A stretch of DNA of 64,000 nt from an uncultured Gemmatimonadales bacterium. GTDB taxonomy: Bacteria > Gemmatimonadota > Gemmatimonadetes > Gemmatimonadales > Gemmatimonadaceae. This document shows positions 3,803-64,000 of this stretch, piece by piece. Below the pieces are notes generated by a model. It saw nothing but the letters and a program-made list of their open reading frames with translations. It was not told the DNA's origin and did not search any database. The stretch's first letter is position 1; every line of letters begins with the position of its first letter. The translations under genes were made by a program, and so were the position numbers. The stretch lies in NCBI GenBank assembly GCA_963851265.1, contig CAWKNZ010000002.1, forward strand, positions 160,001 through 224,000, in the 5' to 3' direction.

Positions 3803-5225
3803 AAAGGGAGTGGTCCGAAAGGCGCTCGCGCTCGCCGCGCTGCTCGCGGCGGCGCCGGCCGCGCGCGCGCAGTCCGTGCCCGCGCTGCGCTTCGAGAAGT
3901 ACTCGCTGCCCAACGGGCTCGAGGTGATCCTGAGTGAGGACCACTCGGTGCCGCTCGTCGCGGTCGACACCTGGTACCACGTGGGCTCGGGAGACGAGAA
4001 GCCCGGGCGTACCGGCTTCGCGCACCTGTTCGAGCACATCATGTTCATGGGCTCGCAGCACGTGCCCGTGGGCTCGTTCGACCAGTGGCTCGAGGCGGCG
4101 GGGGGCAACAACAACGGCTCGACGACCGAGGACCGGACCAACTACTTCGAGTACATGCCGAGCAACGCGCTGCCCCTCGCGCTGTGGCTCGACGCCGACC
4201 GGATGGGGCACCTGCTGCCGACGATGGACCAGGCGAAGGTCGACCTGCAGCGCGACGTCGTGAAGAACGAGCGGCGGCAGCGCGTCGACAACGTGCCGTA
4301 CGGCCGCGCCGACGAGACGATCCGCGGCGCCCTCTACCCCGCCGGTCACCCGTACTCGTGGCCGGTGATCGGGTCGATGGCCGACCTGTCGGCCGCGACG
4401 CTGGACGACGTGCGGAATTTCTTCCGCACCTACTACGCGCCCAACAACGCCACGCTCGTGATCGCGGGGGACTTCGCGCCGGACTCGGCGAAGGCGTGGG
4501 TGCGGCAGTACTTCGGCGGCATCCCGCGCGGCCCGGCCCTCCCCGCGCGCCCCAACCCCGCGCGCGTGTCGCTCGCCCGCGACACGATGCTCGTGCTGGA
4601 GGACAAGGTGCAGCTGCCGCGCTTCTACTACACGTGGCCGACGGTGCGCCTGTTCACGGCCGACGACGCGCCGCTCGAGATCCTCGCCGACGTGCTCGCC
4701 GGCGACAAGAACTCGCGGCTGTACAAGCGGCTGGTGTACGAGCAGCAGACGGCGCAGGCGGTGGCGGCCTACCAGGACGGCAACCGCCTCGCGGGGGCGT
4801 TCACCCTGTCGGTGACGCCCAAGCCGGGGCAGGCGCCGGCGGCGCTGGCCGCCGCGGCGGACGAGGAGGTCGCGCGCCTGGCGCGCGAGGGCCCGACCGC
4901 GCGCGAACTCGAACGCGCCAAGAACTCCGTCCGTGTCACCTTCCTCGACCGACTCGCGAGCGTCAACAGCAAGGCCGACGTGCTCAACACCTACAACTAC
5001 CTCGCCGGCACGCCGGACTACGCGCGGCAGGACGCGGCCCGCTACGACGCGGTGACCGCGGCGGACGTGCAGCGCGTGGCGCGGCAGTACCTCGCGGCGC
5101 ACAAGGTGGTGCTCACCATCGTGCCCGTCGGGCGGCGATCGCTTGCGTTAGGCGGCGCGGCGGCGACGCTGGTGCCGGGCGCCGCGCCCGGGTCGGGCGC
5201 CGCGGCGAGCGGGGGGGCGCGCTGA
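3786..5225 (+). CDS. M16B zinc peptidase, catalytic subunit, with signal peptide
   Basis: HXXEH (HLFEH), NGSTTEDRTNY, VVKNERRQR; signal peptide ALALAALLAAAPAARA/Q; start could be GTG 3810. Confidence 0.93.
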   Translation: MTARIRKGVVRKALALAALLAAAPAARAQSVPALRFEKYSLPNGLEVILSEDHSVPLVAVDTWYHVGSGDEKPGRTGFAHLFEHIMFMGSQHVPVGSFDQWLEAAGGNNNGSTTEDRTNYFEYMPSNALPLALWLDADRMGHLLPTMDQAKVDLQRDVVKNERRQRVDNVPYGRADETIRGALYPAGHPYSWPVIGSMADLSAATLDDVRNFFRTYYAPNNATLVIAGDFAPDSAKAWVRQYFGGIPRGPALPARPNPARVSLARDTMLVLEDKVQLPRFYYTWPTVRLFTADDAPLEILADVLAGDKNSRLYKRLVYEQQTAQAVAAYQDGNRLAGAFTLSVTPKPGQAPAALAAAADEEVARLAREGPTARELERAKNSVRVTFLDRLASVNSKADVLNTYNYLAGTPDYARQDAARYDAVTAADVQRVARQYLAAHKVVLTIVPVGRRSLALGGAAATLVPGAAPGSGAAASGGAR

Positions 5226-6754
5226 TGCGCCGGCCCGCGCTCGCCTGCGCACCGCTCGCGGCCTTCGGGCTCGCGCTCGCCGCGGGGGCCGCGTCGGCCC
5301 CGGCGTTCGCGCAGGCGCCCGCCGCCGACGGCTTTCCGCCCACGCGTCCGACGCTCGGGGCGCCGAAGGCGCTCCACCTGCCGCCCGCGGCCGAGCGGCG
5401 GCTGCCTAACGGTCTGCGGGTCGTCGTCGTCGAGAAGCACGAGCTGCCGCTCGCGGACTTCGCGCTCGTCGTCGGCACGGGGACCGAGGCAGACCCGGCG
5501 GGGCGTGAAGGGCTCGCGACGATGACGGCCGCGCTGCTCGACGAGGGCACCGCGACGCGTTCGTCGCTCCAGATCGCCGACCAGGCCGCGTACCTGGGCG
5601 TGACGCTCCACACGCGCGCGGGGTGGGACGCGTCCGAGGTACTGCTGCACACGCCGACGGCGCAGACGGACAGCGCGCTCGCGCTGATGGCGGACGTGAC
5701 GACGCACCCGACCTTCCCCGTCGCGGAGCTCGACCGGCTGCGGAACGACCGGCTCACGGGGCTGTTGCAGCTGCGCGACCGCGCGCCGGCGATCGCGAGT
5801 CGCGCGTTCGCGCAGGCGGTGTTCGGCGCCGGGCACCCGTACGCGCGCCCCGCCGACGGCACCGAGGCGAGCACGCGCGCGCTCACGCGCGACGACGTGC
5901 AGCGCTTCTACGCCGGCGCGTGGCGCCCCGACAACGCGACGCTCGTCGTGGTGGGCGACGTCACGCCGGACGACGTCGCGCGGCGCGCGGAACGTGCGTT
6001 CGGCGCGTGGCGGGCGCCGGCCGGGGTGGCGCTCGCCGCGCCCGTCGTGCCGGCGGCGCCGAGCGCGGGCGTCGCGCGCGTGGTGCTGGTCGACAAGCCC
6101 GGCGCGCCGCAGTCGAGCGTGCGCATCGGGATGCCGGCCGCGGCGCGCGCGACGCCCGACTACTTCCCGCTCGTCGTGCTCAACACGGTGTTGGGCGGCA
6201 GCTTCGCGAGCCGCCTCAACCAGAACCTGCGCGAGACGCACGGCTACACGTACGGCGCGGAGTCGGCGTTCGACCTGCGCCGCGCGGCGGGGCCGTTCGT
6301 CTCGGGCGCCGAGGTGACGGCGACGAAGACGGATAGCGCGCTCGTCGAGTTCATGAAGGAGCTGCGCGCGGTGGGCGACACGGTGCCCGCGGCGGAGCTG
6401 GACAAGGCGAAGCGGTACCTCGTGTTGCAGATGCCCGGCGAGTTCGAGACGACCGGCGGGATCGCGGGGGGGCTGATTCCGGTGGTCACGTACGGGCTGC
6501 CGCTGGACTACTACAACGGCTACGCGGCGCGGGTGCAGGCGGTGACGCAGGCCGACGTGCAGCGGGTCGCGCGGCGGTACGTGGATCCGGCCCACCTGAC
6601 CATCGTGGTCGTCGGCGACCGGGCGTCGGTCGAGCCGCGGCTGCGCGCGCTGAATTTGGGGCCGGTCGAGATCCGGTCGGCGGCGGACGTGTTGGGGGCG
6701 AGCGCGGCGGTGCCGGCCGGCGCCGCGGGCGCGGGCGGGCCGTCGGCGCGGTAA
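5225..6754 (+). CDS. M16B peptidase, non-catalytic partner subunit, with signal peptide
   Basis: No HXXEH; SRLNQNLRETHGYTYG (R/Y pair); signal peptide ending AFA/Q; TGATG coupling to the previous gene. Confidence 0.9.
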   Translation: MRRPALACAPLAAFGLALAAGAASAPAFAQAPAADGFPPTRPTLGAPKALHLPPAAERRLPNGLRVVVVEKHELPLADFALVVGTGTEADPAGREGLATMTAALLDEGTATRSSLQIADQAAYLGVTLHTRAGWDASEVLLHTPTAQTDSALALMADVTTHPTFPVAELDRLRNDRLTGLLQLRDRAPAIASRAFAQAVFGAGHPYARPADGTEASTRALTRDDVQRFYAGAWRPDNATLVVVGDVTPDDVARRAERAFGAWRAPAGVALAAPVVPAAPSAGVARVVLVDKPGAPQSSVRIGMPAAARATPDYFPLVVLNTVLGGSFASRLNQNLRETHGYTYGAESAFDLRRAAGPFVSGAEVTATKTDSALVEFMKELRAVGDTVPAAELDKAKRYLVLQMPGEFETTGGIAGGLIPVVTYGLPLDYYNGYAARVQAVTQADVQRVARRYVDPAHLTIVVVGDRASVEPRLRALNLGPVEIRSAADVLGASAAVPAGAAGAGGPSAR

Positions 6755-6778
6755 CCGGGGCGCCCAACCGGGGCGCCC
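6753..6778. terminator. GGGCGCCC-N5-GGGCGCCC hairpin between convergent genes (13-bp tandem duplication)
   Basis: aaccggggcgccc twice; the palindromic GGGCGCCC copies can pair; no U-tract. Confidence 0.4.
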
Positions 6779-6793
6779 GCCCCGCGGATCGTC

Positions 6794-7159
6794 TCAGACC
6801 GAACCCCGTGCCCCCTGGGCCGCCCCGTCCAGCTCCCGCTCGAGTTCATCGGCCTTGATGTCGAAGTGCGAGGCCTCGTAGAGCACCCGGCCGTTCGCGA
6901 GCAGGATCGCCTGCGGCGACTCGTGCGTGACGCCGGCGCGCTCGGCGATGTCGCGCGAGAGGGTGCGTTGGGCGTTGACGTCGACGATCCAGACCGGCGC
7001 GTCGGGGCGGTCCTGGAGGAGCCGGCGGACTTCGACGACGGCGGCGGCCGCGATGGGGCAGCGGGTGCTGTGTTTGTAGACGAGCGCGAGCGGCGCGCCG
7101 AAGACGTCGTCCAACTGATTGGGCGCGGTGAGCGGGCGCGGAGCGGGGGAGTCGGCCAT
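6794..7159 (-). CDS. ytxJ: YtxJ/BrxC-family monothiol thioredoxin-like protein (bacilliredoxin-like)
   Basis: YKHSTRCPI monothiol motif and V.HESPQAIL, typical of YtxJ. Confidence 0.85.
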   Translation of the reverse strand: MADSPAPRPLTAPNQLDDVFGAPLALVYKHSTRCPIAAAAVVEVRRLLQDRPDAPVWIVDVNAQRTLSRDIAERAGVTHESPQAILLANGRVLYEASHFDIKADELERELDGAAQGARGSV

Positions 7160-12347: not shown

Positions 12348-13136
12348 ATGGACTGCACCGACTTTCGCCGGCATCACCTCGCGTACCTAGACGACACCCT
12401 GCCGGGTGACGTGCTCGTGGCGGCGGAGCGGCACCGCGTCGAGTGTGCCGCGTGCGGCGCGCACGACACGCTCGTGCGGCGGTCGCTCCTCCTCGCGCGC
12501 AACCTGCCGAGCATCGAGCCGTCGGCGGACTTCACGGCGCGTCTGGACGCGAGGCTGCGCGAGGTGCGCGCCGAAGGACGCGCGGACGTGAAAGAGCTGG
12601 CGTGGGCGGAGGCGCGCTGGAACGGGGCGGCGTGGTACGAGCGCCTGGTGCAAGACGCCGGGGGGTGGGGGCGGCAGGCGGTTGGCGCGGCGGTGGTGCT
12701 CGCGGCCGTCTCGGCCGGGTACGCGATGGGCGGCGGCCGCGACGGCACGCGCGAGCCCGCGACGGGCGCCGGGGCGGTCGCGGCGCCGCCGCCCGCCGCG
12801 TCGACGTTGGGCGCGCGCGCGGCGGACGGCGGCACCGTGTTAGGCGCGGCCGTGGTGGCGGCGCCGGCCGGGATCGCGGCGCACGCGGCGCGGCGCCGGG
12901 ACGGCACCCGGGCGACGGTCGACCCGTCGACCGTCGCCCGCGACGCCGAGGACCTCAACCCGCCCGCCTACATCCCGCTGCCGGCGGGCGCGGTCGAGGC
13001 GAGCGCGCTGCTCGGGCCGGCGTCGGCCGGGATCCCGGTGTGGCCGGCAGCCCTGCTCGCCGGTGAGGCGCCGTTCCAGCTGCGGGCGGCGGGACGCGGC
13101 GCGCCGTCGTTGCGCGTGGTCGGACTGTCGCACTAG
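12348..13136 (+). CDS. Zinc-binding (zf-HC2/ZAS) membrane anti-sigma factor
   Basis: MDC..F....AYLD..L...HRVECAAC (HxxxCxxC); one TM helix; downstream of the ECF sigma. Confidence 0.85.
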   Translation: MDCTDFRRHHLAYLDDTLPGDVLVAAERHRVECAACGAHDTLVRRSLLLARNLPSIEPSADFTARLDARLREVRAEGRADVKELAWAEARWNGAAWYERLVQDAGGWGRQAVGAAVVLAAVSAGYAMGGGRDGTREPATGAGAVAAPPPAASTLGARAADGGTVLGAAVVAAPAGIAAHAARRRDGTRATVDPSTVARDAEDLNPPAYIPLPAGAVEASALLGPASAGIPVWPAALLAGEAPFQLRAAGRGAPSLRVVGLSH

Positions 13137-13496
13137 GTCGCGCCGACCGCCTGGAACCGCGGGGCACGGCGCGACGCGCGCGCGACGACGCCCAGGTCTG
13201 ATCGGACCCCCGGTCCCCTGCGCCGCGCCCGGCGCCTAACAGCAGGCAGCGGGACGCTGGGTGCGCGGCGCGTGACGGAACCGGCACGCCGGCGCCCGGT
13301 GGACGGCAGCGCTCGGCGGGACGGGCCGCGCGTACGGCAGCCGGCGGACGCGGGACTGCTCGGACCTCGCGTGCCCTGGCGGCCGCGCCCGCAGGCGTGG
13401 GCTTGGACCTCGTCCGCGGTACCTTTCGCGCCAGCCCGCGCCCCCGGCTCGCGATCGCGCGCCCGGCCCCGCTGCCCTCACCCCGCACCCGCCCGC

Positions 13497-15119
13497 ATGT
13501 ACCGCATCCTCGTGACCGACGACGTCGACCGCGACGGGCTCGCGCTGCTCGCCGCCGACCCGCGCCTGCAGGTGGACGAAGTGCCCACACTCCCGGCCGC
13601 GGCGTTGCTCGAGCGGATCGGTGGGTACGACGCGATCGTCGGCCGGAGCGCCACGAAGATCTCGCCCGAGTTGCTCGAAGCGGGGACGCGACTGAAGGTG
13701 GTCGGCCGCGCCGGGGTGGGCGTCGACAACGTGGCGATGGACGTGGCGACGTCGCTGGGGGTGGCGGTGATCAACGCGCCCGCGGGCAACACGGTCGCGG
13801 TGGCGGAGCTGTTCTTCGGCACGGTGCTCGGGCTCTTGCGGGAACTGCCGCGCGCGGACGCTGCGATGCGCGCGGGGCGCTGGGACCGCGCGAGCTTTCT
13901 GGGTGCGGAGCTCAAGGGGCGCACGATCGGCATCGTGGGGCTCGGGCGCATCGGGGGCGAGGTGTCGGCGCGGGCGCACGCGTTCGGCGCGGAGGTGGTC
14001 GCGTTCGACCCGTACGTGGCCGACGGCCGCTTCGCCGCGCTGCGGGTGCGCCGGGCGGCGACGCTCGACCTGCTGGCCGAGGAGGCGGACGTGCTGACGG
14101 TTCACACGCCGCTCACCGACGAGACGCGCGGGCTGGTGGGGCGGCGCGAGCTGGGGCGGCTCAAGCCGGGGTCGATCGTCGTGAACATGGCGCGGGGCGG
14201 GATCATCGACGAGGCGGCGCTGCTCGCGGTGCTGCAGGACGGGCTGCCCGGCGGCGGCGCGCTGCGCGGCGCGGTGCTCGACGTGTACGCGAGCGAGCCG
14301 CCGCCGCCGGAGCACCCGTTCCGGCACCTGCCTAACGTGTTCCTGACGCCGCACCTGGGCGCCAACACGGCCGAGGCGCAGCGGAACGTGGCGGTGGACG
14401 TGTGCGCCGCGGTGCGCGACGCGCTCGTGTCGGGCGAGCTGTCGCGGTCGATGAACGTGGCCGGCGCGGACGGGGCGGGCGGGTCGTGGGCCGCGCTCGG
14501 GCCGGCGATGCTGGTGGCGCGCCGCGCGGCCGCGGTGGCGCGCGCGGTGCTCGCCGACCTCGGCGTGCGCGCGGTGCAGCGGCTCACGCTGCGGGCGGGG
14601 GCGGGGCTCGCCGCGGGCCGTGAGGCCCTGCTGGGCGCGGCGGCGCTCGGCGCGGTCGAGGGCGTGGTGGAGCAGGAGCGGCTGAACCTGATCAACGCGC
14701 GCGCGGTGGCCGCGGGGCGCGGGCTGGAGCTGGCCGCGGGCGAGAGCGAGGCGCTCGCGCCCAACGCGATCGAGGTGTCGGTGCGCGGCGCGATGCAGGA
14801 GCTCACCGTGGCCGGCATCGCGCCCGCCGACGGGAGCCCGCGCCTGACGCGCATCGGGGCGTTCCCGGTGGACGTGAACCCGCGGCAGACGCTGCTCGTG
14901 CTCACCAACCGCGACGTGCCGGGCGTGATCGGGCGCGTCGGCACCCTGTTAGGCACCGCGGGCGTGAACATCGCCGAGTACCACCAGGCGCGGCTGGCGC
15001 AGGGGGGCGAGGCGCTGGCCGTGATCGCCGTGGACGGCGTGGTCGGGGAGGCGGTGCGCGAGGCGCTCCGCGACCTGCCCGAGGTGCACGGCGCGGCGGT
15101 GTCGACCTACCGTGGGTGA
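13497..15119 (+). CDS. serA: D-3-phosphoglycerate dehydrogenase
   Basis: RAGVGVDNV, GLGRIG, HTPLT.ET, N.ARGG, TPHLGA; C-terminal ACT domain (NRDVPGVIG). Confidence 0.93.
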   Translation: MYRILVTDDVDRDGLALLAADPRLQVDEVPTLPAAALLERIGGYDAIVGRSATKISPELLEAGTRLKVVGRAGVGVDNVAMDVATSLGVAVINAPAGNTVAVAELFFGTVLGLLRELPRADAAMRAGRWDRASFLGAELKGRTIGIVGLGRIGGEVSARAHAFGAEVVAFDPYVADGRFAALRVRRAATLDLLAEEADVLTVHTPLTDETRGLVGRRELGRLKPGSIVVNMARGGIIDEAALLAVLQDGLPGGGALRGAVLDVYASEPPPPEHPFRHLPNVFLTPHLGANTAEAQRNVAVDVCAAVRDALVSGELSRSMNVAGADGAGGSWAALGPAMLVARRAAAVARAVLADLGVRAVQRLTLRAGAGLAAGREALLGAAALGAVEGVVEQERLNLINARAVAAGRGLELAAGESEALAPNAIEVSVRGAMQELTVAGIAPADGSPRLTRIGAFPVDVNPRQTLLVLTNRDVPGVIGRVGTLLGTAGVNIAEYHQARLAQGGEALAVIAVDGVVGEAVREALRDLPEVHGAAVSTYRG

Positions 15120-16302: not shown

Positions 16303-17784
16303 ATGCCCGGTATAGAAGAACCGATCGACCTGAGCGCGACCACTTCCGCCCCGCGTTCGGCCGCGGAGGCGCCGCGGCCGCAGTCCACCCCGCCGCCCGT
16401 GCCCGGCTTCTGGGCGTCGGTGCGCGAGGCGCTCGCCGGCAGCCACCAGGACTTCACCGCCGGCCCGTTAGGCCGTGCGATCCTGCTGCTCGCCGTCCCG
16501 ATGGTGCTCGAGATGGCGATGGAGAGCGTGTTCGCGGTCACCGACGCGTACTTCGTCGGCCGGCTCGGCGCCGACGCGCTCGCCACCGTCGGCCTCACCG
16601 AGTCGATGCTCGCCGTGGTCTACGCGCTCGCCATGGGACTCGGCGTGGGCGCGACGGCGGTGGTCGCGCGGCGCGTGGGCGAGAAGGACCCCGCCGGCGC
16701 GGCGCGCGCGGCCGCGACGGCGGTGGCCATCGGCGTCGCGCTCTCGCTCGTGCTCGGCGCGGCGGGCGCGGTGCTCGCCCCGCGGCTGCTCGCCCTCATG
16801 GGCGCGCCGGCGGGCGTGCTCGCCACCGGCACCGGGTACGCGCGCATCATGCTCGGCGGTGAGGCCAGCATCATCCTGCTCTTCGTGGCCAACGCGATCT
16901 TCCGCGGCGCGGGCGACGCGGCGATCGCGATGCGGACGCTCTGGCTGGCCAACGCGATCAACATCGTGCTCGGGCCGCTGCTCATCTTCGGCCCGGGCCC
17001 GTTCCCGGCGCTCGGCGTGACCGGCGCGGCCGTCGCGACGACGATCGGCCGCAGCACGGGTGCGCTCTACGCCCTCTGGCGGCTCACGCGCCCGACGAGC
17101 CGCGTGCACGTCGCGCGGCGCGACTTCGCCGTCGACCGTGCGGTGGTCCGCCGGATCGTGGACGTGGCCGGCGCGGCCGCCGCGCAGTCGATGATCGGGA
17201 CGGCGAGCTGGATCGGGCTCGTGCGCGTGGTCGCCACCTTCGGCGCGACGGCGCTCGCCGGCTACACGATCACGATGCGCGTGATCGTCTTCGCCATCCT
17301 CCCCGCCTTCGGGATGAGCAACGCCGCGGCGACGCTCGTCGGCCAGGCGTTAGGCGCGCGCGACCCGGGGCGCGCCGAGCGTGCGGTGTGGACGACGGGG
17401 CACTACAACGCGGCGTTCCTCGGCGTGCTCAGCCTGCTGTTCGTGTTCGCCGCGCCGGCGCTCGTCGGCGTGTTCACGCACGACCCCGGCGTGCTGCGCT
17501 ACGGCGCCGACGGGCTGCGCGTGGTCGCCGCGGGGTTCGTGCTGTACGCGTACGGCCTCGTGCTCACGGCCGCGTTCAACGGGGCGGGCGACACGCGGAC
17601 GCCGACGGTGCTCAACCTCGTCGTGTTCTGGCTGTTCGAGATCCCCGTGGCGTACGTGCTCGCGCGGACGCTCGGGATGGGGCCGCACGGGGTGTTCGTG
17701 GCGATCGCGCTCGCGTTCTCGCTGCTGGCGGTGGCGAGTGCGGCCGTGTTTCGGCGCGGCCGGTGGAAGCGGAGCGTGGTGTGA
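16303..17784 (+). CDS. MATE-family efflux transporter
   Basis: About 12 TM; LAVPMVLEM.MES.F...D..FV..LG, FRGAGD, NIVL.P.LIFG, FNGAGDT.TP. Confidence 0.93.
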   Translation: MPGIEEPIDLSATTSAPRSAAEAPRPQSTPPPVPGFWASVREALAGSHQDFTAGPLGRAILLLAVPMVLEMAMESVFAVTDAYFVGRLGADALATVGLTESMLAVVYALAMGLGVGATAVVARRVGEKDPAGAARAAATAVAIGVALSLVLGAAGAVLAPRLLALMGAPAGVLATGTGYARIMLGGEASIILLFVANAIFRGAGDAAIAMRTLWLANAINIVLGPLLIFGPGPFPALGVTGAAVATTIGRSTGALYALWRLTRPTSRVHVARRDFAVDRAVVRRIVDVAGAAAAQSMIGTASWIGLVRVVATFGATALAGYTITMRVIVFAILPAFGMSNAAATLVGQALGARDPGRAERAVWTTGHYNAAFLGVLSLLFVFAAPALVGVFTHDPGVLRYGADGLRVVAAGFVLYAYGLVLTAAFNGAGDTRTPTVLNLVVFWLFEIPVAYVLARTLGMGPHGVFVAIALAFSLLAVASAAVFRRGRWKRSVV

Positions 17785-26840: not shown

Positions 26841-26862
26841 CTACGCCTAACCGTCACCTTCG

Positions 26863-50579: not shown

Positions 50580-51638
50580 TCACGCCGCCGCCCGCGCGAT
50601 TCGGTCGCGCACCCCCGCCCACGCCGGCGTGTCGGGCGGGCGCTCGACCAGCGCCACGTCGCAGCCCGCGGCGTCGAGCGCGTGGAGCGCCGCGTAGAGC
50701 CGGCTCGCGTAGCCCGCCGGGTCCGCGGGGAGCACGTCGACGAGGTCGGGCGGGGCGCCCGACGCGTCACTCCACGGCGCGAGCAGCAGTGCGCCCGCGC
50801 GCGCGCCCGGGTGGCCGGGCCGCCACGCGGCGAGCCGTGCGGCCGCGTCGCGCCGCCGCCCCTGGTCGAACGCCCAGACCGCCGCGCGCGGCGCGTAGTG
50901 GCGCGCGACCATCCCCGGCGCGAGGCGGGGCGCGTCGGGCGCCGCGTCGTCGGCGGCCGGCGCCGGCGCGAGCGTGGTGCCTAACGCAGCCTCCAGGCGC
51001 GCGGGGTCGAGCGTGCCCGGCCGCAGCAGGCGCGGCGGCCCGTCGCCGCGCGCGACGCCGGTGAGGTCGACCACCGTGCTCTCGATGCCCACCGCCGTCG
51101 GGCCGCCGTCGAGCACGAGGTCGACGCGCGAGCCGAGCGCGCGGACGACGTGCGCGGCGGTGGTCGGCGACAGCTCCGTGTAGCGGTTGGCGCTCGGCGC
51201 CGCCACCGGGACGCCGGCGGCGCGCACGAGCGCGAGCGCCACCGGGTGCGCCGGCACGCGCACGGCGACCGCCGGGAGGCCGGCGGTGAGGGCGTCGGGC
51301 ACGTGGGCGCGCTTGGGCAGCACGAGCGTGAGGGGGCCGGGCCAGAACGCGGCGGCGAGGCGGTCGGCGGCGTCGGGCCAGCGGGTGACCAGGGCGCGGG
51401 CGTCGGCCGCGTCGGCGACGTGGGCGATCACCGGGTTGAAGCTCGGGCGCCCCTTGGCGGCGAAGATCCCGCGCACCGCGTCGGCGTCGAGCGCGTTGGC
51501 GCCGAGTCCGTAGACGGTCTCGGTGGGGAAGGCGACGAGCCGGCCGGCACGGAGGAGGGCCGCGGCGCGCGCCAGGGCGGCGGTCGCGGCGGGCGCGTCG
51601 AGGGCGGTGGGATCGACGGCGAGGACGGGCGGCGACAT
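50580..51638 (-). CDS. sua5: L-threonylcarbamoyladenylate synthase (Sua5-type TsaC)
   Basis: VAFPTETVYGLGA, KGRPS.NP.I.H, FWPGPLT, APSAN, GIESTVVD, PGM...HYAP plus SUA5 C-domain. Confidence 0.95.
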   Translation of the reverse strand: MSPPVLAVDPTALDAPAATAALARAAALLRAGRLVAFPTETVYGLGANALDADAVRGIFAAKGRPSFNPVIAHVADAADARALVTRWPDAADRLAAAFWPGPLTLVLPKRAHVPDALTAGLPAVAVRVPAHPVALALVRAAGVPVAAPSANRYTELSPTTAAHVVRALGSRVDLVLDGGPTAVGIESTVVDLTGVARGDGPPRLLRPGTLDPARLEAALGTTLAPAPAADDAAPDAPRLAPGMVARHYAPRAAVWAFDQGRRRDAAARLAAWRPGHPGARAGALLLAPWSDASGAPPDLVDVLPADPAGYASRLYAALHALDAAGCDVALVERPPDTPAWAGVRDRIARAAA

Positions 51639-54738: not shown

Positions 54739-56213
54739 GGCGTTGGATGGCGGCGGCGTGCCTGTTCGGGTGCGCCGCCGGGCGGGTCGCCGCCCAACCG
54801 GCGGTGGCCCAGCCGGCCGCCGCCCAGCCCACCGCCGCCCAGCCCACCGCCGAACGCGCCTTCGCCGACACCCTCGCCCGCCGCACCTTCGACTGGTTCT
54901 GGGAGACCACCGACCCCGTCCGGGGGCTCACCCCGGACCGCTGGCCCACCCGGACCTTCTCCAGCATCGCCGCCGTCGGGTTCGCCCTCACGGCCTACCC
55001 GATCGGCGTCGAGCGCGGCTGGATCTCGCGCGACTCGGCGCGCGCGCGCACCCTCACCACGCTGCGGTTCTTCTGGACCGCCCCGCAGGGCCCCGACGCG
55101 CAGGGGACTGCGGGCTACCGCGGCTTCTTCTACCACTTCCTCGACGTGCGGACCGGCCGCCGCTTCGGCCGCGTCGAGCTGTCGACCATCGACACCGCGC
55201 TGCTGTTAGGCGGCGTCCTGTTCTGCCGCGAGTACTTCGACCGCGCCGGCGACCCCGGCGAGCGCGAGATCCGCGCGCTCGCCGACTCGATCTACCGCCG
55301 CGTCGACTGGCGCTGGGCGCAGGACGCCCGCCCGCTCGTCGCGATGGGGTGGCGCCCCGACTCCGCGCGGGGCCAGAACGCGCGCGGCTTCATCACGAGC
55401 AGCTGGTTCGGCTACACCGAGGCGATGCTCCTCTACGCCCTCGCCCTCGGCTCGCCCACGCACCCGGTCGACCCCGCGGCGTGGGGCGCGTGGACCCGCA
55501 CGTACCAGTGGAACACCTTCCGCGGCCAGCGCTACGTGCAGTTCGCGCCGCTCTTCGGTCACCAGTACTCGCACGTCTGGATCGACTTCCGCGGCGTCCG
55601 CGACGCGTACATGCGCGGGCGCGCGGCGGACGACCCGGGGCTCGACTACTTCGAGAACTCGCGCCGCGCGACGCTCGCGCAGCGCGCCTACGCGACGGCC
55701 GACCCGTCGGGGTGGACGGGCTACGGGCCCGACGCGTGGGGGCTCACCGCGAGCGACGGACCGCTGGACTCCACGTTCGCCGTCGGTGGCCGCGTGCGCA
55801 CCTTCCACACGTACTGGGCCCGCGGCGCGGGCACCGACGAACTGAACGACGACGGCACGCTCGCCCCCACCGCGGTCGGCGGCAGCGTGCCGTTCGCCCC
55901 CGAGGTCGCACTCCCCACGCTCCTCGCCATGCGGCGCACGTACGGCGATCCCCTGTTCGGGCGGTACGGCTTCGTCGACGCGTTCAACCCGACGCTCCGC
56001 GACGCCGCGCTCCCCGTCCGGCAGGGCCGCGTCGTGCCCGGCGTGGGGTGGTTCGACACCGACTACCTCGGCATCGACCAGGGGCCCATCGTGGCCATGC
56101 TCGAGAACCATCGCTCGGGCCTCGTGTGGCGGCTGATGCGCAAGAGCCCGTACGTTGTGCGCGGGCTGTGTCGGGCGGGATTCACGGGCGGCTGGCTGGA
56201 GGGGAAGTGCTGA
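54735..56213 (+). CDS. Glucoamylase-family/DUF3131 protein (GH144 endo-beta-1,2-glucanase-like)
   Basis: GL.PDR, SIAAVGF.L, GFFYHF, ELSTIDTALL, GPLF-like APLFGHQYSH, WGLTA.DG, GIDQGP; GTGA overlap with the receptor stop. Confidence 0.88.
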   Translation: MRRWMAAACLFGCAAGRVAAQPAVAQPAAAQPTAAQPTAERAFADTLARRTFDWFWETTDPVRGLTPDRWPTRTFSSIAAVGFALTAYPIGVERGWISRDSARARTLTTLRFFWTAPQGPDAQGTAGYRGFFYHFLDVRTGRRFGRVELSTIDTALLLGGVLFCREYFDRAGDPGEREIRALADSIYRRVDWRWAQDARPLVAMGWRPDSARGQNARGFITSSWFGYTEAMLLYALALGSPTHPVDPAAWGAWTRTYQWNTFRGQRYVQFAPLFGHQYSHVWIDFRGVRDAYMRGRAADDPGLDYFENSRRATLAQRAYATADPSGWTGYGPDAWGLTASDGPLDSTFAVGGRVRTFHTYWARGAGTDELNDDGTLAPTAVGGSVPFAPEVALPTLLAMRRTYGDPLFGRYGFVDAFNPTLRDAALPVRQGRVVPGVGWFDTDYLGIDQGPIVAMLENHRSGLVWRLMRKSPYVVRGLCRAGFTGGWLEGKC

Positions 56214-56242: not shown

Positions 56243-58585
56243 ATGACGAACGGACGGTGGCGTGCCATCTCGAGCGCCGCCGCGCTCACGCTCGGTCTCG
56301 TGGCCCTGGCCGCGCCCCGAGCACACGCCCAACGCCGCACGGTCTCGCCCGCCCGCGCGTCGCGTATCGCCGACTCCGTGCTCGCGCTGCTCTCGCTCGA
56401 CGAGAAGGTCGGCCAGCTCGTGCAGTCGCCGGGCGGCCGCGACCAGACCGGCCCCACCGCCCCGACGGGCGGCGAGGACGCGGTGCGCGCGGGGCGCGTG
56501 GGCTCGTTCCTCAGCTTCTGGGGCGCGGACGCCACGCGGCGCGTGCAGCGCGTGGCCGTCGAACAATCGCCGCACCACGTCCCGCTGCTCTTCGCGATGG
56601 ACGTGATCCACGGCTTCCGCACGATCTTCCCGCAGCCGCTGGCCGAGGCGGCGGCGTTCGACCCCGCGGTCGCCCAGCGCGCCGCGCGCGCCGCGGCCGT
56701 CGAGGCCAGCGCGGCCGGCATCCACTGGACGTTCGCGCCGATGGTCGACATCGCGCGCGACCCGCGCTGGGGGCGCGTGGTCGAGGGCGCGGGCGAGGAC
56801 CCGTACCTCGGCGCGCGCCTGGCGGAGGCGCGCGTCCGCGGCTTCCAGGGCGACAGCGGGTTCACGGCCCCCACCGCGCTGATGGCCACCGCCAAGCACT
56901 TCGTCGGCTACGGCACCACCGAAGGGGGCCGCGACTACAACACCGGCGAGATCGGCGAGCGCACGCTGTGGGACGTGTACCTGCCGCCCTTCGAGGCCGC
57001 GGCGCGCGCGGGCGTGGCGACCTTCATGGCCGGCTTCAGCGCCGTCGACGGCACGCCGCCGCACGCGAGCCACTGGCTGCTCACCGACGTGCTGCGCGAC
57101 CGCTGGCGCTTCGGCGGGCTCGTCGTGAGCGACTGGGACGGCGTCGGCGAGCTGATCCCCCACGGCGTCGCGGCCACGCGCGCCGACGCGGCCACGCGCG
57201 CCATCACCGCCGGCGTCGACGTCGACATGTCGGACAACGTCTACGCCACCGACCTCGCCGCGCTCGTGCGCGCCGGGCGCGTGCCGCAGGCGAGCGTCGA
57301 TTCGGCCGTGCACCGCGTGCTGCGCGCCAAGGCGCTGCTCGGCCTCTTCGACGACCCGTACCGCGGCGTGACCGCCGAGCGCGAGCGGCGTGACGTGCTC
57401 GCCCCCGCGCACCGCGCGCTCGCCCGGCAGGGCGGGCGCGAGTCGGTCGTGCTGCTCGAGAACCGCCCGGTCTCCGCTGGCGGCGCCCCCACGCTGCCGC
57501 TGTCGAAGGCGGTCCGCTCGCTCGCCGTGATCGGCCCGCTCGCCGACGACCGGCGCTCGTCGTTAGGCAACTGGCTGCTGGCCGCGGAAGACGCCGACGC
57601 GGTGACCGTGCTCGCCGGGCTCCGCGCCGCGCTCCCGGGCGCGCGCGTGTCGTACCTCCGCGCCATGTCGGCCGACACCGTCGACGGGCGCGTCGGGCCG
57701 GGGATCGACAGCGCCGTCGCGCTCGTGCGCGCCGCCGACGCCACCGTGCTCGTGATCGGCGAGCGCGAGAACATGAGCGGCGAGGCGTCCAGCCGCACCA
57801 CGCTCGACCTGCCCGGCGCGCAGCTCGCGCTCGCGCAGGCCGTGGTGCGCGCGGCGCGCGCGGCGGGCAAGCCGGCCGCGGTGGTGCTCATGAACGGGCG
57901 CCCGCTCTCGACGCCCTGGCTCGCCGACAGCGCGGGCGCGGTGGTCGAGTCGTGGTTCCTCGGCGTGGAGCACGGCAACGCGGTCGCCGACGTGCTCCTG
58001 GGCGAGTACAACCCCGCGGGGCGGCTGCCGATCACGGTGCCGCGCGCCGTGGGGCAGGTGCCCATCTACTACAACCACTTCAACACCGGCCGCCCCGAGA
58101 ACCTCGCCGACCATTTCACGAGCCGGTACCTCGACCTGGCGTCGACGCCGCTCTACCCGTTCGGGTACGGGCTCAGCTACACGACGTTCGCCTACCGCGC
58201 GCTGCGCCCGTCGGCAGCGTCGGTGCGCTTCACCGGGCCGCGCGACACGCTGGGCGTGTCGTTCGAGGTGACCAACACCGGCGCGCGCGCGGGCGACGAG
58301 GTCGTGCAGCTCTACGTGCGCGACGACGTGGCGAGCGTGGTGCGCCCGGTGCGCGAGCTGAAGCGGTTCGCGCGCGTGTCGCTGCGGCCGGGCGAGACGC
58401 GCCTCGTGCGCTTCACCCTGACCGCCGACGACCTCGCGTTCTACGGCCTCGACCTGCGGCGCGTGGTCGAGCCGGGCACGTTCACGCTCTGGGCGGGCGG
58501 AAGCTCGGCCGCCGCGCTCGAAGCGAAGTTCGCGGTCACGGGCGACACGCTCGTCCTCGCGCCCGCGCCGCCGCGGTATCGATGA
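56243..58585 (+). CDS. bglX: GH3 beta-glucosidase (BglX-like), secreted
   Basis: DVIHG, FAPMVDIARDPRWGR..EG.GEDP, KHF, VSDW, SGEA.SR, PFGYGLSYT, FnIII C-domain. Confidence 0.93.
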   Translation: MTNGRWRAISSAAALTLGLVALAAPRAHAQRRTVSPARASRIADSVLALLSLDEKVGQLVQSPGGRDQTGPTAPTGGEDAVRAGRVGSFLSFWGADATRRVQRVAVEQSPHHVPLLFAMDVIHGFRTIFPQPLAEAAAFDPAVAQRAARAAAVEASAAGIHWTFAPMVDIARDPRWGRVVEGAGEDPYLGARLAEARVRGFQGDSGFTAPTALMATAKHFVGYGTTEGGRDYNTGEIGERTLWDVYLPPFEAAARAGVATFMAGFSAVDGTPPHASHWLLTDVLRDRWRFGGLVVSDWDGVGELIPHGVAATRADAATRAITAGVDVDMSDNVYATDLAALVRAGRVPQASVDSAVHRVLRAKALLGLFDDPYRGVTAERERRDVLAPAHRALARQGGRESVVLLENRPVSAGGAPTLPLSKAVRSLAVIGPLADDRRSSLGNWLLAAEDADAVTVLAGLRAALPGARVSYLRAMSADTVDGRVGPGIDSAVALVRAADATVLVIGERENMSGEASSRTTLDLPGAQLALAQAVVRAARAAGKPAAVVLMNGRPLSTPWLADSAGAVVESWFLGVEHGNAVADVLLGEYNPAGRLPITVPRAVGQVPIYYNHFNTGRPENLADHFTSRYLDLASTPLYPFGYGLSYTTFAYRALRPSAASVRFTGPRDTLGVSFEVTNTGARAGDEVVQLYVRDDVASVVRPVRELKRFARVSLRPGETRLVRFTLTADDLAFYGLDLRRVVEPGTFTLWAGGSSAAALEAKFAVTGDTLVLAPAPPRYR

Positions 58586-60839: not shown

Positions 60840-61674
60840 CGCCGGCCCCGCCGCCGTTCGCCCGCGTGCGGTTCGCCCGCGTGCTGCTCGCCGGCGCGCT
60901 CGCCGCCTGCGGCGCGGCCGCGCTCCTCCCGATGCTCTGGATGCTGGCCGCGTCGTTCATGCGGCCCGGCGAGGCCACCACCTACCCGCCGCACCTCCTG
61001 CCCCGCGCGCCCACGCTCGAGCACTACCGCGCGCTCTTCACCCGCCTGTCGTTAGGCCGCTACGCCCTCAACGGCTTCGTCGTCGCGGCGCTCGTCACCG
61101 GGCTCTCGCTGTTCGTCAACGCGGCCGCGGGGTACGCCTTCGCCAAGCTGCGCTTCCGCGGGCGCGACGGGCTGTTCGGCCTGCTCGGCACGGCGCTCGT
61201 CGTGCCGGCGCAGGTCGCGATGCTGCCGCTCTTCCTGGAGCTCAAGGCGCTGCACCTCGTCAACACGTACGCGGGCGTGGTCGTCCCCGCGCTCGCGAGC
61301 ATCTTCGGCATCTTCCTCGTGCGGCAGTACGCGCTCGCGCTCCCCGACGACCTGCTCGACGCGGCGCGCATCGACGGCGCGGGGGAGGGGCGCGTGTTCT
61401 GGAGCATCGTGCTGCCGGCCATCCGCCCGGTGCTCGCGACGCTCAGCATCTGGACCTTCCTCTCGACCTGGAACGACTTCCTCTGGCCGCTCGTCGTGCT
61501 CACCGACGACCGCCGCTACACGCTCCCGGTCGCCCTCGCGGGCCTGCTCGGCGAGCACGCCCAACAGACGGAGCTGATGATGGCCGGCTCCGTGCTCACG
61601 CTGCTGCCGGTGCTGGTGGTCTTCCTCGCGCTGCAGCGTTACTACATCGAAGGCGTGACCGCGGGGAGCGTGAA

Positions 61675-61678
<4 letters not shown>
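60836..61678 (+). CDS. Carbohydrate ABC transporter permease (MalG-like)
   Basis: [31 protein letters not shown]...GSVK. Confidence 0.93.
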
Positions 61679-62852
<1,174 letters not shown>

Positions 62853-62856
<4 letters not shown>

Positions 62857-64000
62857 GCGCCGGCCGCGCCGCGCCGGGGCGCCCCGTCGTAGACCCGCGG
62901 CAGGTCGACCACGAACGTACTCCCCTCGCCGAGGGTGCTCGTGACGCTCACGTCGCCGCCGAGCAGCCACGTCAGCTGCCGCACGATGCTGAGGCCGAGC
63001 CCCGTGCCCGCGGCCGGGCGCGTGGTCGGCTGCAGGCTGGCCCCGCCCGACACCTGGACGAACGGTTCGAACACCCGCGCCAGCTGCTCCGGCGGGATCC
63101 CGATGCCGGTGTCGCGCACGGTGATCCGCAGCCACTCGCCGGCCGGCGAGTCGGCCACGCACGTCTCGACCACCACCCGCCCGTGGTCGGTGAACTTGAC
63201 CGCGTTGCCGACGAGGTTGGTGACGATCTGGCGCACCTTGCGCTCGTCGCTCACGACGTCGACGCCGGCGGCCGGCCCCTCCTGCGCGAGCGCGAGCTGC
63301 TTGCGGGCGGCGAGCGGCGCGGTGATGTCGAGCACCTGCGCGACCGTGGCGGCCGCGTCGAAGGGCGCGGGCACGACCACCTCCTTGCCCGACTGCGCCC
63401 GCGCGAAGCCGAGCAGGTTCTCGATGGTGTCGAGCAGGTGTCCGCCGGCCGTCTGCACGCGGCGCACGTACTCGTGCTGCCGCGGCGCGAGCGGGCCCGC
63501 GATCTCCGCGCCTAACAGGTCGGAGAAGCCGAGGATCGCCTGGAGCGGCGTGCGCAGCTCGTGCGAGACCACGGCGAGGAAGTCGTCCTTCGCGCGGTTC
63601 GCGTCCTCGGCGAGCCGCCGCGACTCCTCGGCGTCCGCGCGCGCCCGCTCGGCCTCGCGCCGCGCCTCGGCCTCGGCCGCGCGCGCGCGTTCGGCGGCGG
63701 CGTGCGCCGCACGCTCGCCGTAGTACAGCCGGGCCTGGGCCAGCGCCCGAGCGAGCCGCCCCGCCGCCGCCCGCAGCATCACCTGCTCGCTCGGCACCAG
63801 GCGGCGCGGCTCCGTCCACCCCACGAGCAGCATTCCGTGCACGCGCCCCATGTACCGCGCCGGTACGGCCGCGAGCGCCTGGACCCCCAGTGCATCGACC
63901 GTGGGGCGGAGCGCCGGGTAGCGCTCGACCAGACTCGCGCGGCTTCCGAAATGGAGCACGCGTTCGGTACGGGCTGCCTCGCTCACCGGACACGCCGCGG
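62853..64000 (-). CDS. GAF-domain sensor histidine kinase (5' partial)
   Basis: H-box SHELRTPL, N-box [28 protein letters not shown]-like segment upstream; appears to run off the window. Confidence 0.92.

What the first reader, a model, noticed from the sequence alone, without database searches (positions are those of the whole stretch)
5147..63516. Dispersed (Y)GTTAGGC motif written into genes through rare codons, on both strands
Seen by manual count: 30 exact copies (14 plus, 16 minus, about one per 2 kb) and 4 GTTAG variants (29876, 31593, 34307, 49028). Of about 35 TTAG/CTAA tetramers found, 34 are GTTAG. Eighteen copies read G-TTA-GGC (Leu-Gly using the very rare TTA codon). Nine read G-CCT-AAC (Pro-Asn using rare CCT), which is the same DNA word in reverse. 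Two are intergenic. One (62852) supplies the stops of two convergent genes (TAG and TAA). A rough zero-order expectation at about 73% GC is 5-6 copies, and lower given TA avoidance. Inference: the signal acts at DNA level, not in translation. It has no strand bias here, unlike Chi/KOPS, and is non-palindromic, unlike HIP1. Candidates are an uptake-sequence-like tag, a nucleoid-protein site, or a methylation/modification target. I know of no description of it.
Basis: partly seen in the sequence, partly recalled or inferred. Interest (0 to 1): 0.8.

Follow-up and report, generated by a model that had tools for sequence, protein, structure and literature searches.

The report
Genome-wide GTTAGGC word in Gemmatimonadaceae
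This soil bacterium and about a third of its family keep one exact 7-9 letter DNA word written thousands of times into genes, stop codons and spacers against their own codon habits, which means some unknown protein reads the DNA itself, most likely as a kin tag for DNA exchange like those of Neisseria and Haemophilus.

Summary
The window has 30 GTTAGGC against 2.5 expected, and 34 of 35 TTAG lie in GTTAG.

The word is genome-wide: 1,762 copies, the top 7-mer and 8-mer, consensus Y-GTTAGGC-R. It holds 993 of 1,279 TTA codons. It acts on DNA. Both orientations, spacers and stop codons are enriched. I found no replication polarity. New copies arise by substitution. Copies are kept between species at 61-69%, against 25% for controls.

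In 121 family genomes the spread is bimodal: 38 enriched, 76 depleted. Outside the family, one of 119 sampled genomes reaches 2.5x. The cultured Gemmatirosa kalamazoonensis KBS708 carries the word on both megaplasmids. Its published methylome shows no methylation of it.

Evidence weighs against Chi, methylation or VSP repair, insertion, translation and an origin exclusion zone. The word equals this genome's own integron attC core, but integrase presence does not track enrichment.

The best reading is a DUS/USS-like transfer tag spread by molecular drive (about 0.4). The reader protein is unknown. Competence genes are present but do not discriminate.

This scan reported the same word before, in other windows of this genome and in another Gemmatimonadaceae genome.

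The parts
5147..5153 (+). word copy, G-TTA-GGC (Leu-Gly) in M16 peptidase gene 3810-5225
5404..5410 (-). word copy, read G-CCT-AAC (Pro-Asn) by + gene 5225-6754
12839..12845 (+). word copy, G-TTA-GGC in gene 12279-13136
13234..13240 (-). word copy, intergenic
14330..14336 (-). word copy, G-CCT-AAC in serA-like gene 13497-15119
14948..14954 (+). word copy, G-TTA-GGC in serA-like gene
16467..16473 (+). word copy, G-TTA-GGC in MatE gene 16399-17784
17349..17355 (+). word copy, G-TTA-GGC in MatE gene
18892..18898 (-). word copy, G-TTA-GGC in - gene 17833-18999
26845..26851 (-). word copy, intergenic between SusC-like and SusD-like genes
27366..27372 (-). word copy, G-CCT-AAC in SusD-like gene 26863-28407
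29201..29207 (-). word copy, G-CCT-AAC in GH43 gene 28530-29630
29585..29591 (-). word copy, G-CCT-AAC in GH43 gene
31809..31815 (-). word copy, G-TTA-GGC in - carbamoyltransferase gene 30333-32162
33512..33518 (-). word copy, G-TTA-GGC in - gene 32180-34240
34707..34713 (-). word copy, G-CCT-AAC in GH2 gene 34444-37350
35343..35349 (+). word copy, G-TTA-GGC in GH2 gene
38171..38177 (-). word copy, G-CCT-AAC in fucosidase gene 37347-38834
39060..39066 (+). word copy, G-TTA-GGC in GH127 gene; kept in all 4 aligned genus-mate stretches
40695..40701 (-). word copy, G-CCT-AAC in GH127 gene; kept in G002 and G003
42723..42729 (-). word copy, G-CCT-AAC; G004 has GCCCAAC and G001 an unrelated sequence at the same place, no indel
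44397..44403 (+). word copy, G-TTA-GGC; G003 has GTTGGGC, G004 CCTGCGC, G001 GCTGAGT, no indel
46250..46256 (+). word copy, G-TTA-GGC; G004 has GTTGGGC
46926..46932 (+). word copy, G-TTA-GGC; absent in G002 and G004 by substitution
50979..50985 (-). word copy, G-TTA-GGC in - gene 50580-51638
55205..55211 (+). word copy, G-TTA-GGC in gene 54747-56213
57562..57568 (+). word copy, G-TTA-GGC in gene 56243-58585
61051..61057 (+). word copy, G-TTA-GGC in gene 60836-61678
62852..62858 (+). word copy supplying the TAG stop of + gene 61675-62856 and the TAA stop of the convergent - gene 62853-64349
63510..63516 (-). word copy, G-TTA-GGC in - gene 62853-64349

Best explanation
Y-GTTAGGC-R is a double-stranded DNA recognition word. 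An as yet unidentified sequence-specific protein, present in part of the Gemmatimonadaceae, reads it. Under this reading, alleles that carry the word are passed on by recombination more often than alleles that lack it. This molecular drive, as proposed for the USS of Pasteurellaceae and the DUS of Neisseriaceae, writes the word wherever protein coding tolerates it. The tolerated places are mainly synonymous Leu-Gly (G-TTA-GGC), Pro-Asn on the other strand, TAG/TAA stop codons and spacers. Shown here: the word is real, exact and genome-wide; it is read at DNA level, arises by substitution, is actively maintained and still turns over; it is limited to part of one family. Inferred: that transfer bias, and not per-site selection for some other binding function, is what maintains it. 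Also inferred is which protein reads it.
For: Abundance and sharpness:
- G000 holds 1,762 copies, 885 on one strand and 877 on the other.
- The word is the top-ranked 7-mer, and CGTTAGGC the top 8-mer, under Markov orders 1-3, at 11-18x and 17-28x.
- One-letter variants that keep the TA are not enriched, at 8-118 copies each. The only variants above expectation are those that replace the A of the TA core or T1 with G: GTTGGGC 2.5x, GTTCGGC 1.8x, GGTAGGC 1.55x.

DNA-level reading:
- Slot occupancy is 12.6% of xxG-Leu-Gly, 17.4% of xxG-Pro-Asn and 8.3% of xGC-Leu-Thr.
- Words supply 78 TAG and 108 TAA stop codons.
- 291 copies are intergenic. In co-directional spacers 81 match and 76 oppose the gene direction.
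- The flank logo is the same in 216 fully intergenic copies.

Maintenance and turnover:
- G-TTA-GGC is kept in G002 at 153/221 (69%) and in G001 at 46/75 (61%).
- Any 7-mer in the same codon phase is kept at 25%, and G-CTS-GGC at 27%.
- Intergenic words are kept at 14/26.
- About 10% of slots that are empty in G000 carry the word in G002.
- Sites that differ between species differ by substitution, mostly synonymous Leu codons, not by indels.

Likeness to USS/DUS:
- Both orientations are used, and the spread is Poisson-like at 3.8 per 10 kb.
- Density in convergent spacers is three times the genome average.
- Five inverted word pairs form hairpins, three of them between convergent genes.
- Both megaplasmids of G. 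kalamazoonensis KBS708 carry the word at high density.
- A 45-kb block that looks imported carries no word at all.

Machinery:
- ComEC is found in 38/38 enriched genomes.
- A conserved comEA-pilB-pilT-pilC cluster, DprA and pilin genes are present.
Against: - No discriminating receptor was found. ComEC (69/76), ComEA-like proteins, PilT, DprA and pilins are also present in depleted genomes.
- The ComEA proteins of the discordant genus-mates G061 and G114 look alike.
- The ComP_DUS family has no match in G000. Its only match over the cut-off among 121 genomes is in a depleted genome.
- To my knowledge natural transformation has never been shown in this phylum. No paper holds both 'Gemmatimonad' and 'DNA uptake sequence'.
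- USS are reported to favour frames that use preferred codons (PMC2817400, abstract). This word sits on the rarest codons.
- Only 16.5% of copies are intergenic and few lie in hairpins. About half of DUES are reported to lie in terminators (bioRxiv 2025.10.24.684340, abstract).
- The trait is patchy even within genera: G061 has 3,896 copies and G114 has 66. A depleted genome has no alternative 'dialect'.
- Word density is the same in C2 DNA that aligns to G002 and in DNA that does not, 0.34 per kb in both.
- A word-free 45-kb block entered the genome, so entry of DNA is not strictly word-dependent.
- Antisense coding copies are kept no better than controls: 8/37 against 32% for G-CCS-AAC.
- The transfer model alone does not explain why the word equals the integron attC core.
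Confidence: 0.4

Rival explanations
1. The word is the binding site of an abundant sequence-specific chromosomal protein, for example one acting in nucleoid organisation or segregation, or a 'self' marker for a defence system. Ordinary selection would keep each copy.
For: - The match is exact over 7-9 bp, with flank preferences that are the same in coding and non-coding DNA.
- Conservation is strong in genes, spacers and stop codons.
- The word is as dense on megaplasmids as elsewhere.
- The spread along the genome is Poisson-like.
Against: - No candidate protein was found.
- The one spatial clue, a 45-kb word-free zone around gidA-parAB-mnmE in G000, is not shared by G001, G004, G012, G052 or G061. 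It looks like an imported block.
- Two thirds of the family do without the word, so the function cannot be essential.
- Per-site selection would have to beat codon bias and GC pressure at thousands of sites.
Confidence: 0.25
2. The words are integron-type recombination boxes. A tyrosine recombinase of the IntI family, or a paralogue of it, would bind them as double-stranded attI/attG-like R boxes. They would serve as landing or excision sites for gene cassettes, or as decoys.
For: - G000's own cassette array (C10:188.9-215 kb) has attC sites built as GCCTAACGCC...CGTTAGGC. These are the same word with the same C at -1.
- The word fits the integron R' consensus GTTRRRY, whose crossover lies after the G (PMC12901181, passages).
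- IntI inserts cassettes at genomic GWT sites. Hot spots carry CRGM at +6 to +9 (bioRxiv 2022.09.11.507474, passages). The word's C at +6 and R at +7 agree with this in part.
- Integron arrays with the same core occur in depleted relatives.
Against: - A near-full IntI is found in 21/38 enriched and 40/76 depleted genomes (Fisher p 0.84).
- The most enriched genus, g9, has only IntI fragments or none.
- G000's own intI is split.
- Dispersed words are single boxes without a partner.
- Gains are substitutions, not 6-bp or cassette insertions.
- Most copies lie inside genes, where cassette insertion would be harmful.
- MAG assemblies may miss integrons, so 'not necessary' is less firm than 'not sufficient'.
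Confidence: 0.12
3. The word is a Chi-like signal that regulates a helicase-nuclease such as RecBCD or AddAB.
For: The word is a short, asymmetric, over-represented oligomer. In the 880 kb flanking the inferred terminus of C2, 184 of 272 copies lie on the leading strand.
Against: - Gene orientation explains that skew: 607 genes are co-directional and 148 head-on.
- Slot occupancy does not differ by replication direction. Leu-Gly is 13.1% against 9.5% (p 0.11), and Pro-Asn differs in the same direction, not the opposite one. Intergenic copies split 12 to 11.
- RecC is found in only 14/121 genomes, 4/38 enriched and 10/76 depleted, and not in G000, G001, G004 or G012.
- AddAB-type nuclease pairs occur in G000, G009 and G114. 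None was found in the strongly enriched G012 and G061.
Confidence: 0.04
4. The word is a methylation or modification target, enriched by a linked repair bias (HIP1-like or VSP-like).
For: The word is an exact short motif. HIP1 in cyanobacteria is linked to methyltransferases (recalled, not checked here).
Against: - The SMRT methylome of KBS708, whose plasmids are full of the word, lists only RGATCY, ATGCAC and CCAGN7TCA (PMC3974934, whole text).
- No Vsr and no C5-methyltransferase family match was found in G000, G012 or G061.
- A one-position repair bias cannot raise a word 30-100x over the family baseline. This last point is inference.
Confidence: 0.03
5. The signal is translational: TTA-GGC would act as a regulatory rare-codon pair, in the manner of bldA.
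For: 993 of 1,279 TTA codons lie in the word. A single tRNA-Leu(taa) gene exists.
Against: - Antisense copies are 9x over the codon shuffle.
- Intergenic copies and copies at stop codons are also enriched.
- The word requires the G before and the GGC after the codon, plus flanking preferences that persist in non-coding DNA.
Confidence: 0.02

Closest known systems
DNA uptake sequences: USS of Pasteurellaceae and DUS of Neisseriaceae
   Same: Both are thousands of exact copies of a short asymmetric word on both strands. Both are written into genes as well as spacers, shared by related genera and conserved at orthologous sites yet turning over. Some copies form inverted pairs in hairpins between convergent genes. 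Copy numbers are of the same order: 1,471, 765 and 1,892 in the three genomes of PMC2817400.
   Different: No uptake preference or receptor is known here. ComP_DUS is not found. Only part of the family carries the word and there are no dialects. The word sits on the rarest codons instead of preferred ones. 83% of copies lie in genes or stop codons. The core is 7 bp, against 9-12 bp.
Integron recombination core (R' GTTRRRY and R'' RYYYAAC of attC, R box of attI)
   Same: The letters are identical to the R' and R'' boxes of this genome's own attC sites, including the C before the G. The word fits the published consensus.
   Different: The dispersed words are single boxes without the folded attC partner. 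Their abundance does not follow integrase presence. They arise by point substitution.
Chi sites (RecBCD/AddAB)
   Same: Both are short, asymmetric, over-represented words.
   Different: No replication polarity remains once gene direction is taken into account. RecC is not found in G000, and no RecBCD or AddAB signature is found in two strongly enriched genomes.
HIP1 of cyanobacteria
   Same: Both are hyper-abundant octamer-scale words of unknown function inside genes.
   Different: HIP1 is palindromic and linked to methyltransferases (recalled). This word is asymmetric and is not among the methylated motifs of KBS708.

Membership tests
DNA uptake sequences (USS/DUS) | Hyper-abundant exact short word, equal on both strands, genome-wide | tested here: met
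   1,762 copies (885/877), top 7-mer and 8-mer
DNA uptake sequences (USS/DUS) | Competent cells take up DNA with the word in preference | not testable with these tools
   Needs uptake assays in a cultured strain such as KBS708
DNA uptake sequences (USS/DUS) | Competence machinery encoded | tested here: met
   ComEC in 38/38 enriched genomes. A comEA-pilB-pilT-pilC cluster, DprA and pilin genes are present. They are also present in depleted genomes.
DNA uptake sequences (USS/DUS) | Known receptor type (ComP minor pilin of Neisseria) | tested here: not met
   PF16732 has no match in G000. One of 121 genomes is over the cut-off, and that genome is depleted.
DNA uptake sequences (USS/DUS) | Many copies as inverted pairs in terminators | tested here: inconclusive
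   Only five hairpin pairs were found. Density in convergent spacers is 3x the genome mean.
Chi sites | Orientation bias relative to replication, independent of genes | tested here: not met
   Slot occupancy and intergenic copies show no polarity in 880 kb around the inferred terminus.
Chi sites | RecBCD or AddAB present wherever the word is enriched | tested here: not met
   RecC in 4/38 enriched genomes. No PDDEXK_1 pair in G012 or G061.
Methylation-linked words (HIP1-like, VSP-driven) | The word is a methyltransferase target | tested here: not met
   The KBS708 SMRT methylome lacks it. No PF00145 or PF03852 match in G000, G012 or G061. m5C by another enzyme class is not excluded.
Integron recombination sites | Sequence of the R box | tested here: met
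   Identical to the attC R' and R'' boxes of the G000 array. Fits GTTRRRY.
Integron recombination sites | Paired boxes that fold (attC), or a position next to intI (attI) | tested here: not met
   Dispersed copies are single. Close pairs number 46 of 1,762 at 200 bp or less, many of them in the array.
Integron recombination sites | Dependence on an integron integrase | tested here: not met
   21/38 against 40/76, p 0.84.
KOPS / polar architecture words | Strand skew that switches at origin and terminus | tested here: not met

The most novel reading that the evidence does not exclude
Part of the Gemmatimonadaceae has a DNA uptake (or transfer) specificity tuned to the integron attC core, C-GTTAGGC. 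If so, this would be the first uptake sequence outside the Proteobacteria. Every gene cassette carries two copies of the word, so such cells would harvest cassette DNA from their surroundings in preference and feed it to their chromosomal integrons. Transformation has been shown to supply cassettes in Vibrio cholerae (PMC12614218, abstract). The same bias would then spread the word through the cells' own genomes by molecular drive.
Probability: 0.15. Interest if true: 0.95.

Novelty: new variant of a known kind. Interest (0 to 1): 0.8.

Why it matters
Only two bacterial families are known to tag their DNA with uptake sequences, and words such as HIP1 are still unexplained. Here a third, unrelated lineage of abundant soil bacteria carries a tag as dense as those, written against strong codon and GC pressure. 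The word is also the integron recombination core. That raises a testable link between DNA exchange and gene-cassette capture. A cultured, finished-genome strain with published SMRT data (Gemmatirosa kalamazoonensis KBS708) carries the word, so experiments are possible now. In practice, the word marks native DNA of these lineages in metagenomes and explains most of their TTA codons.

Tried and rejected
- Maximal-order Markov ranking hid the word, because its sub-words carry the signal. I used lower orders instead.
- Origin exclusion zone: the largest word-free gap holds gidA-parAB-mnmE. Five other enriched genomes have normal word density around parB, so I rejected the idea.
- Methylation or VSP repair: rejected.
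- ComEC, ComEA, PilT, DprA and pilin counts are present in carriers and non-carriers alike. The ComEA sequences of the discordant pair look alike.
- ComP_DUS: nothing.
- 'Dialects': a 400-kb sample of the depleted G063 has no hyper-abundant word. Its top words reach 2.4-4.5x and are of codon type.
- A dif-like full site built from two words: only terminator-like hairpins were found, and no generic dif match on C2.
- Outgroup polarisation of gains and losses failed. The 400 kb fetched from G001 aligned to other contigs, leaving only 13.8 kb of three-way overlap.
- Core versus non-aligned DNA showed no density difference. The 'foreign DNA lacks words' point therefore rests on the GC trend and on the one 45-kb block.
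- A protein search of the plasmid collection gave nothing useful.
- Four accession look-ups were not on record.
- An unbiased gene-content comparison of carriers and non-carriers could not be run with the fetch limits.

Full report
**Observation.** The window holds 30 exact GTTAGGC (14 +, 16 -). The mean of 100 dinucleotide-preserving shuffles is 2.53 and the largest is 7. It holds 35 TTAG/CTAA tetramers, fewer than the 52 expected, and 30 of them lie in the word. The four variants all read CGTTAG, and only the copy at 3799 does not. There are 18 G-TTA-GGC, 9 G-CCT-AAC and 2 intergenic copies. One more copy, at 62852, gives the TAG stop of one gene and the TAA stop of the convergent gene.

**Genome-wide picture.** The window is G000:C2:160001-224000 of a 4.60-Mb, 12-contig, 73% G+C assembly.
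- The genome has 1,762 copies, 885 on one strand and 877 on the other. Of 2,470 TTAG/CTAA tetramers, 2,173 are GTTAG.
- GTTAGGC is the most over-represented 7-mer under Markov orders 1, 2 and 3 (expected 160, 96 and 127). CGTTAGGC is the top 8-mer, with 1,396 copies against 50-82 expected.
- The logo adds C (79%) or T (14%) before the word. After it come G or A (76%) and almost never T. The same preferences hold in 216 copies that are fully intergenic with their flanks. The unit read is therefore about 9 bp, Y-GTTAGGC-R.
- One-letter variants that keep the TA are not enriched, at 8-118 copies each. The only variants above expectation replace the A of the TA core or T1 with G. GTTGGGC has 1,393 copies against 558 expected, GTTCGGC is at 1.8x and GGTAGGC at 1.55x.
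- Copies are spread like a Poisson process (mean 3.82 per 10 kb, variance 3.83). They become denser as local G+C rises (rho 0.38), which is the opposite of what composition predicts.

**Relation to coding.**
- 993 copies read G-TTA-GGC in sense. That is 993 of all 1,279 TTA codons.
- 197 read G-CCT-AAC and 71 read GC-CTA-AC on the other strand. 24 read GTT-AGG-C.
- 78 supply TAG stops and 108 supply TAA stops. 291 are intergenic.
- The 3:1 excess of sense copies reflects supply of sites. Occupancy is 12.6% of xxG-Leu-Gly slots, 17.4% of xxG-Pro-Asn and 8.3% of xGC-Leu-Thr, but only 0.7% of Val-Arg-C.
- Shuffling synonymous codons within each gene predicts 42 sense and 29 antisense copies, against 1,017 and 268 observed.
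- tRNA-Leu(taa) and tRNA-Pro(ggg) genes exist.
- In spacers between co-directional genes, 81 words match the gene direction and 76 oppose it. Density is 1.15 per kb in convergent spacers, 0.48 in co-directional and 0.36 in divergent ones. The genome mean is 0.38.
- Five inverted pairs form hairpins: C2:11211, C2:116118, C7:567607, C7:601246 and C8:177681. Three of them (C2:11211, C7:567607, C8:177681) lie between convergent genes.
- All of this places the signal on double-stranded DNA, not in translation.

**Replication.** GC skew is weak. Cumulative skew and gene orientation both peak near 1.357 Mb of C2, which I take as the terminus. In the 880 kb around it, 184 words lie on the leading strand and 88 on the lagging strand. 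However, 607 genes are co-directional and 148 head-on. Leu-Gly slots are filled at 13.1% in co-directional genes and 9.5% in head-on genes (p 0.11). Pro-Asn slots are filled at 13.2% and 10.9%, a difference in the same direction and not the opposite one. Intergenic copies split 12 to 11. I find no intrinsic polarity.

**Evolution.** I aligned 960 kb of G000 to the genus-mate G002. Identity is 81.5% overall and 67% at third codon positions.
- Sense words are kept exactly at 153/221 (69%), or 86% where the slot survives.
- Any 7-mer in the same phase is kept at 25%, G-CTS-GGC at 27% and G-TTG-GGC at 2/36.
- Intergenic words are kept at 14/26, TAG-stop words at 10/12 and TAA-stop words at 6/13.
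- Antisense G-CCT-AAC words are kept at only 8/37 (22%). The control G-CCS-AAC is 32%. Against sense words the Fisher test gives p = 6e-8. Spacer copies of both orientations are conserved, so I read this as a higher cost of the antisense coding forms. I do not read it as strand-specific function.
- A second pair, G000 and G001 over 288 kb, repeats the result: 46/75, 4/18 and 25.6%.
- Turnover is active. In the first 300 kb, 58 sense words are shared, 33 are G000-only and 82 are G002-only. The alternative states are mostly GTTGGGC, GCTCGGC and GCTGGGC, which are synonymous Leu codons.
- About 10% of slots empty in G000 hold the word in G002.
- No indels mark gains, so the words are not inserted.

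**Distribution.** Record titles of close SerA relatives place the genome in the Gemmatimonadaceae. The best named relative is Roseisolibacter sp. H3M3-2 at 76% amino-acid identity.
- I counted CGTTAGGC against its reversed control in 121 family genomes of 68 genera. The ratio is bimodal: 38 genomes at 2x or more (up to 33x and 6,360 copies), 76 at 0.5x or less, and 7 between.
- Genera are mostly uniform. Exceptions include G061 (3,896) against G114 (66), and G094 against G031.
- In a phylum sample of 151 genomes and 12 families, only one of the 119 genomes outside this family reaches 2.5x (G249).
- These tallies include the unpublished genomes G011, G047, G093, G177 and G206.
- A 400-kb sample of the depleted G063 has no hyper-abundant word of any kind. 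The trait is therefore presence or absence, not dialects.
- Enriched genomes span 60-74% G+C, so the word is not a side effect of extreme G+C.
- The cultured type strain Gemmatirosa kalamazoonensis KBS708 carries the word. Four 50-kb stretches of plasmid 1 (NZ_CP007129.1) hold 148 copies against 5 controls, and 148 of 160 TTAG lie in the word, with the same flanks. The first 50 kb of plasmid 2 hold 25 against 1.

**Tests of mechanisms.**
- *Methylation.* The KBS708 genome paper, read in full, reports three m6A motifs (RGATCY, ATGCAC, CCAGN7TCA) and nothing on this word (PMC3974934). No Vsr or C5-methyltransferase family match was found in G000, G012 or G061.
- *Chi.* No polarity was found (see Replication). 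RecC occurs in 14/121 genomes, 4/38 enriched and 10/76 depleted, and not in G000. AddAB-type nuclease pairs occur in G000, G009 and G114 but not in G012 or G061.
- *Integron.* Following a lead from earlier notes of this scan, I found that G000 has a cassette array at C10:188.9-215 kb. Its attC sites are GCCTAACGCC...CGTTAGGC, 96-121 bp long, with IS481, IS1182 and IS110 elements among them. Its intI is split on C6. The word thus equals this genome's own R' and R'' boxes and fits the consensus GTTRRRY/RYYYAAC (PMC12901181, passages). However, a near-full IntI occurs in 21/38 enriched and 40/76 depleted genomes (p 0.84). Depleted genomes have arrays with the same core. IntI is therefore not sufficient and probably not necessary.
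- *Competence.* ComEC is found in 114/121 genomes. All 38 enriched genomes have it, and the 7 without it are all depleted (p 0.09). ComEA-like genes occur in 118/121 genomes and sit in a conserved comEA-pilB-pilT-pilC cluster. PilT, DprA and 7-9 pilin signatures occur in carriers and non-carriers alike. The ComEA proteins of G061 and G114 look alike. ComP_DUS is not found. The machinery for uptake is there, but nothing I tested explains who carries the word.
- *Origin exclusion.* The largest word-free gap (C1:182,876-227,962, where about 17 copies are expected) holds gidA, parA, parB and mnmE at normal G+C. Five other carriers have 23-98 words in the 80 kb around parB. The G000 block is 73-83% identical to G004 and G001, mostly below 80%. 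The flanks are more mixed, 72-89%, with the longer stretches at 82-89%. I read the block as a diverged allele imported without words. It is not a functional zone.

**Reading.** A sequence-specific reader of double-stranded Y-GTTAGGC-R must exist in carriers. The force that keeps the word is strong enough to override codon bias and GC pressure. It has also created hundreds of copies since closely related species split. The known process that does this is transfer-biased molecular drive, as proposed for USS and DUS (PMC2817400 and bioRxiv 2025.10.24.684340, abstracts).

I hold this at about 0.4, for four reasons. The receptor is unknown, and the codon and terminator patterns differ from USS/DUS. 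The trait is patchy. The word's identity with the integron core is too exact to ignore.

A reading that joins the two is an uptake specificity tuned to attC cores. Published work makes it plausible: transformation feeds cassettes to a chromosomal integron (PMC12614218, abstract). I tested none of it here.

**Novelty.** A whole-word search of the paper library for GTTAGGC, GCCTAAC, CGTTAGGC and GCCTAACG found two papers, neither on a genome-wide word. 'Gemmatimonad' together with 'DNA uptake sequence' found none. Earlier notes of this scan describe the same word in other windows of this genome and in another Gemmatimonadaceae genome. I tested their main claims independently. My additions are:
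- the family-wide bimodality with association tests;
- the conservation and turnover measurements;
- the negative results for Chi, methylation and the origin zone;
- the presence of the word in KBS708, read alongside its methylome.

Noticed in passing
G000:C10:188,900-215,025 (L011, L012) and G000:C6:1-6,100 (L215): There is a chromosomal integron cassette array with at least 12 attC-like sites and small genes on the - strand. IS481 and IS1182 elements and two identical IS110-family elements, flanked by the word, interrupt it. The intI gene on C6 is split into residues 2-265 and 260-313, about 2 kb apart.
   Followed up: partly
G000:C1:182,876-227,962: A 45-kb block around gidA-parAB-mnmE has no word. 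It is about 5-10 points more diverged from genus-mates than its flanks. It looks like a homologous replacement of an origin-proximal core region by DNA from a word-poor donor.
   Followed up: partly
window 22516-49015: A polysaccharide utilisation locus. It holds a LacI-type regulator, a SusC/SusD pair, GH43, GH2, alpha-L-fucosidase, GH127, a sugar ABC transporter, an FGGY kinase, a class II aldolase and an arabinofuranosidase.
   Followed up: no
window 3810-9982: Four M16 (insulinase-type) peptidase genes lie as two tandem pairs. No word occurs between 5,410 and 12,839.
   Followed up: no
G000:C7:759,400-764,500 (L186) and the same cluster in G061, G114, G009, G012: A conserved comEA-pilB-pilT-pilC gene cluster occurs across the family. 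It suggests a DNA uptake apparatus tied to type IV pilus ATPases.
   Followed up: partly
G000 genome-wide: Words built round AGCGCT or AGC...GCT (for example AGGCGCT, AAGCGCT, AGCGGCT) top the maximal-order Markov ranking of 7-mers at 1.9-2.7x. I have no explanation.
   Followed up: no
G063 (400-kb sample, L192-L211): In this word-free relative, which has RecC, the top words are GGTGGTG and TGCTGGTG at 2.4-3.2x. These resemble the E. coli Chi core.
   Followed up: no
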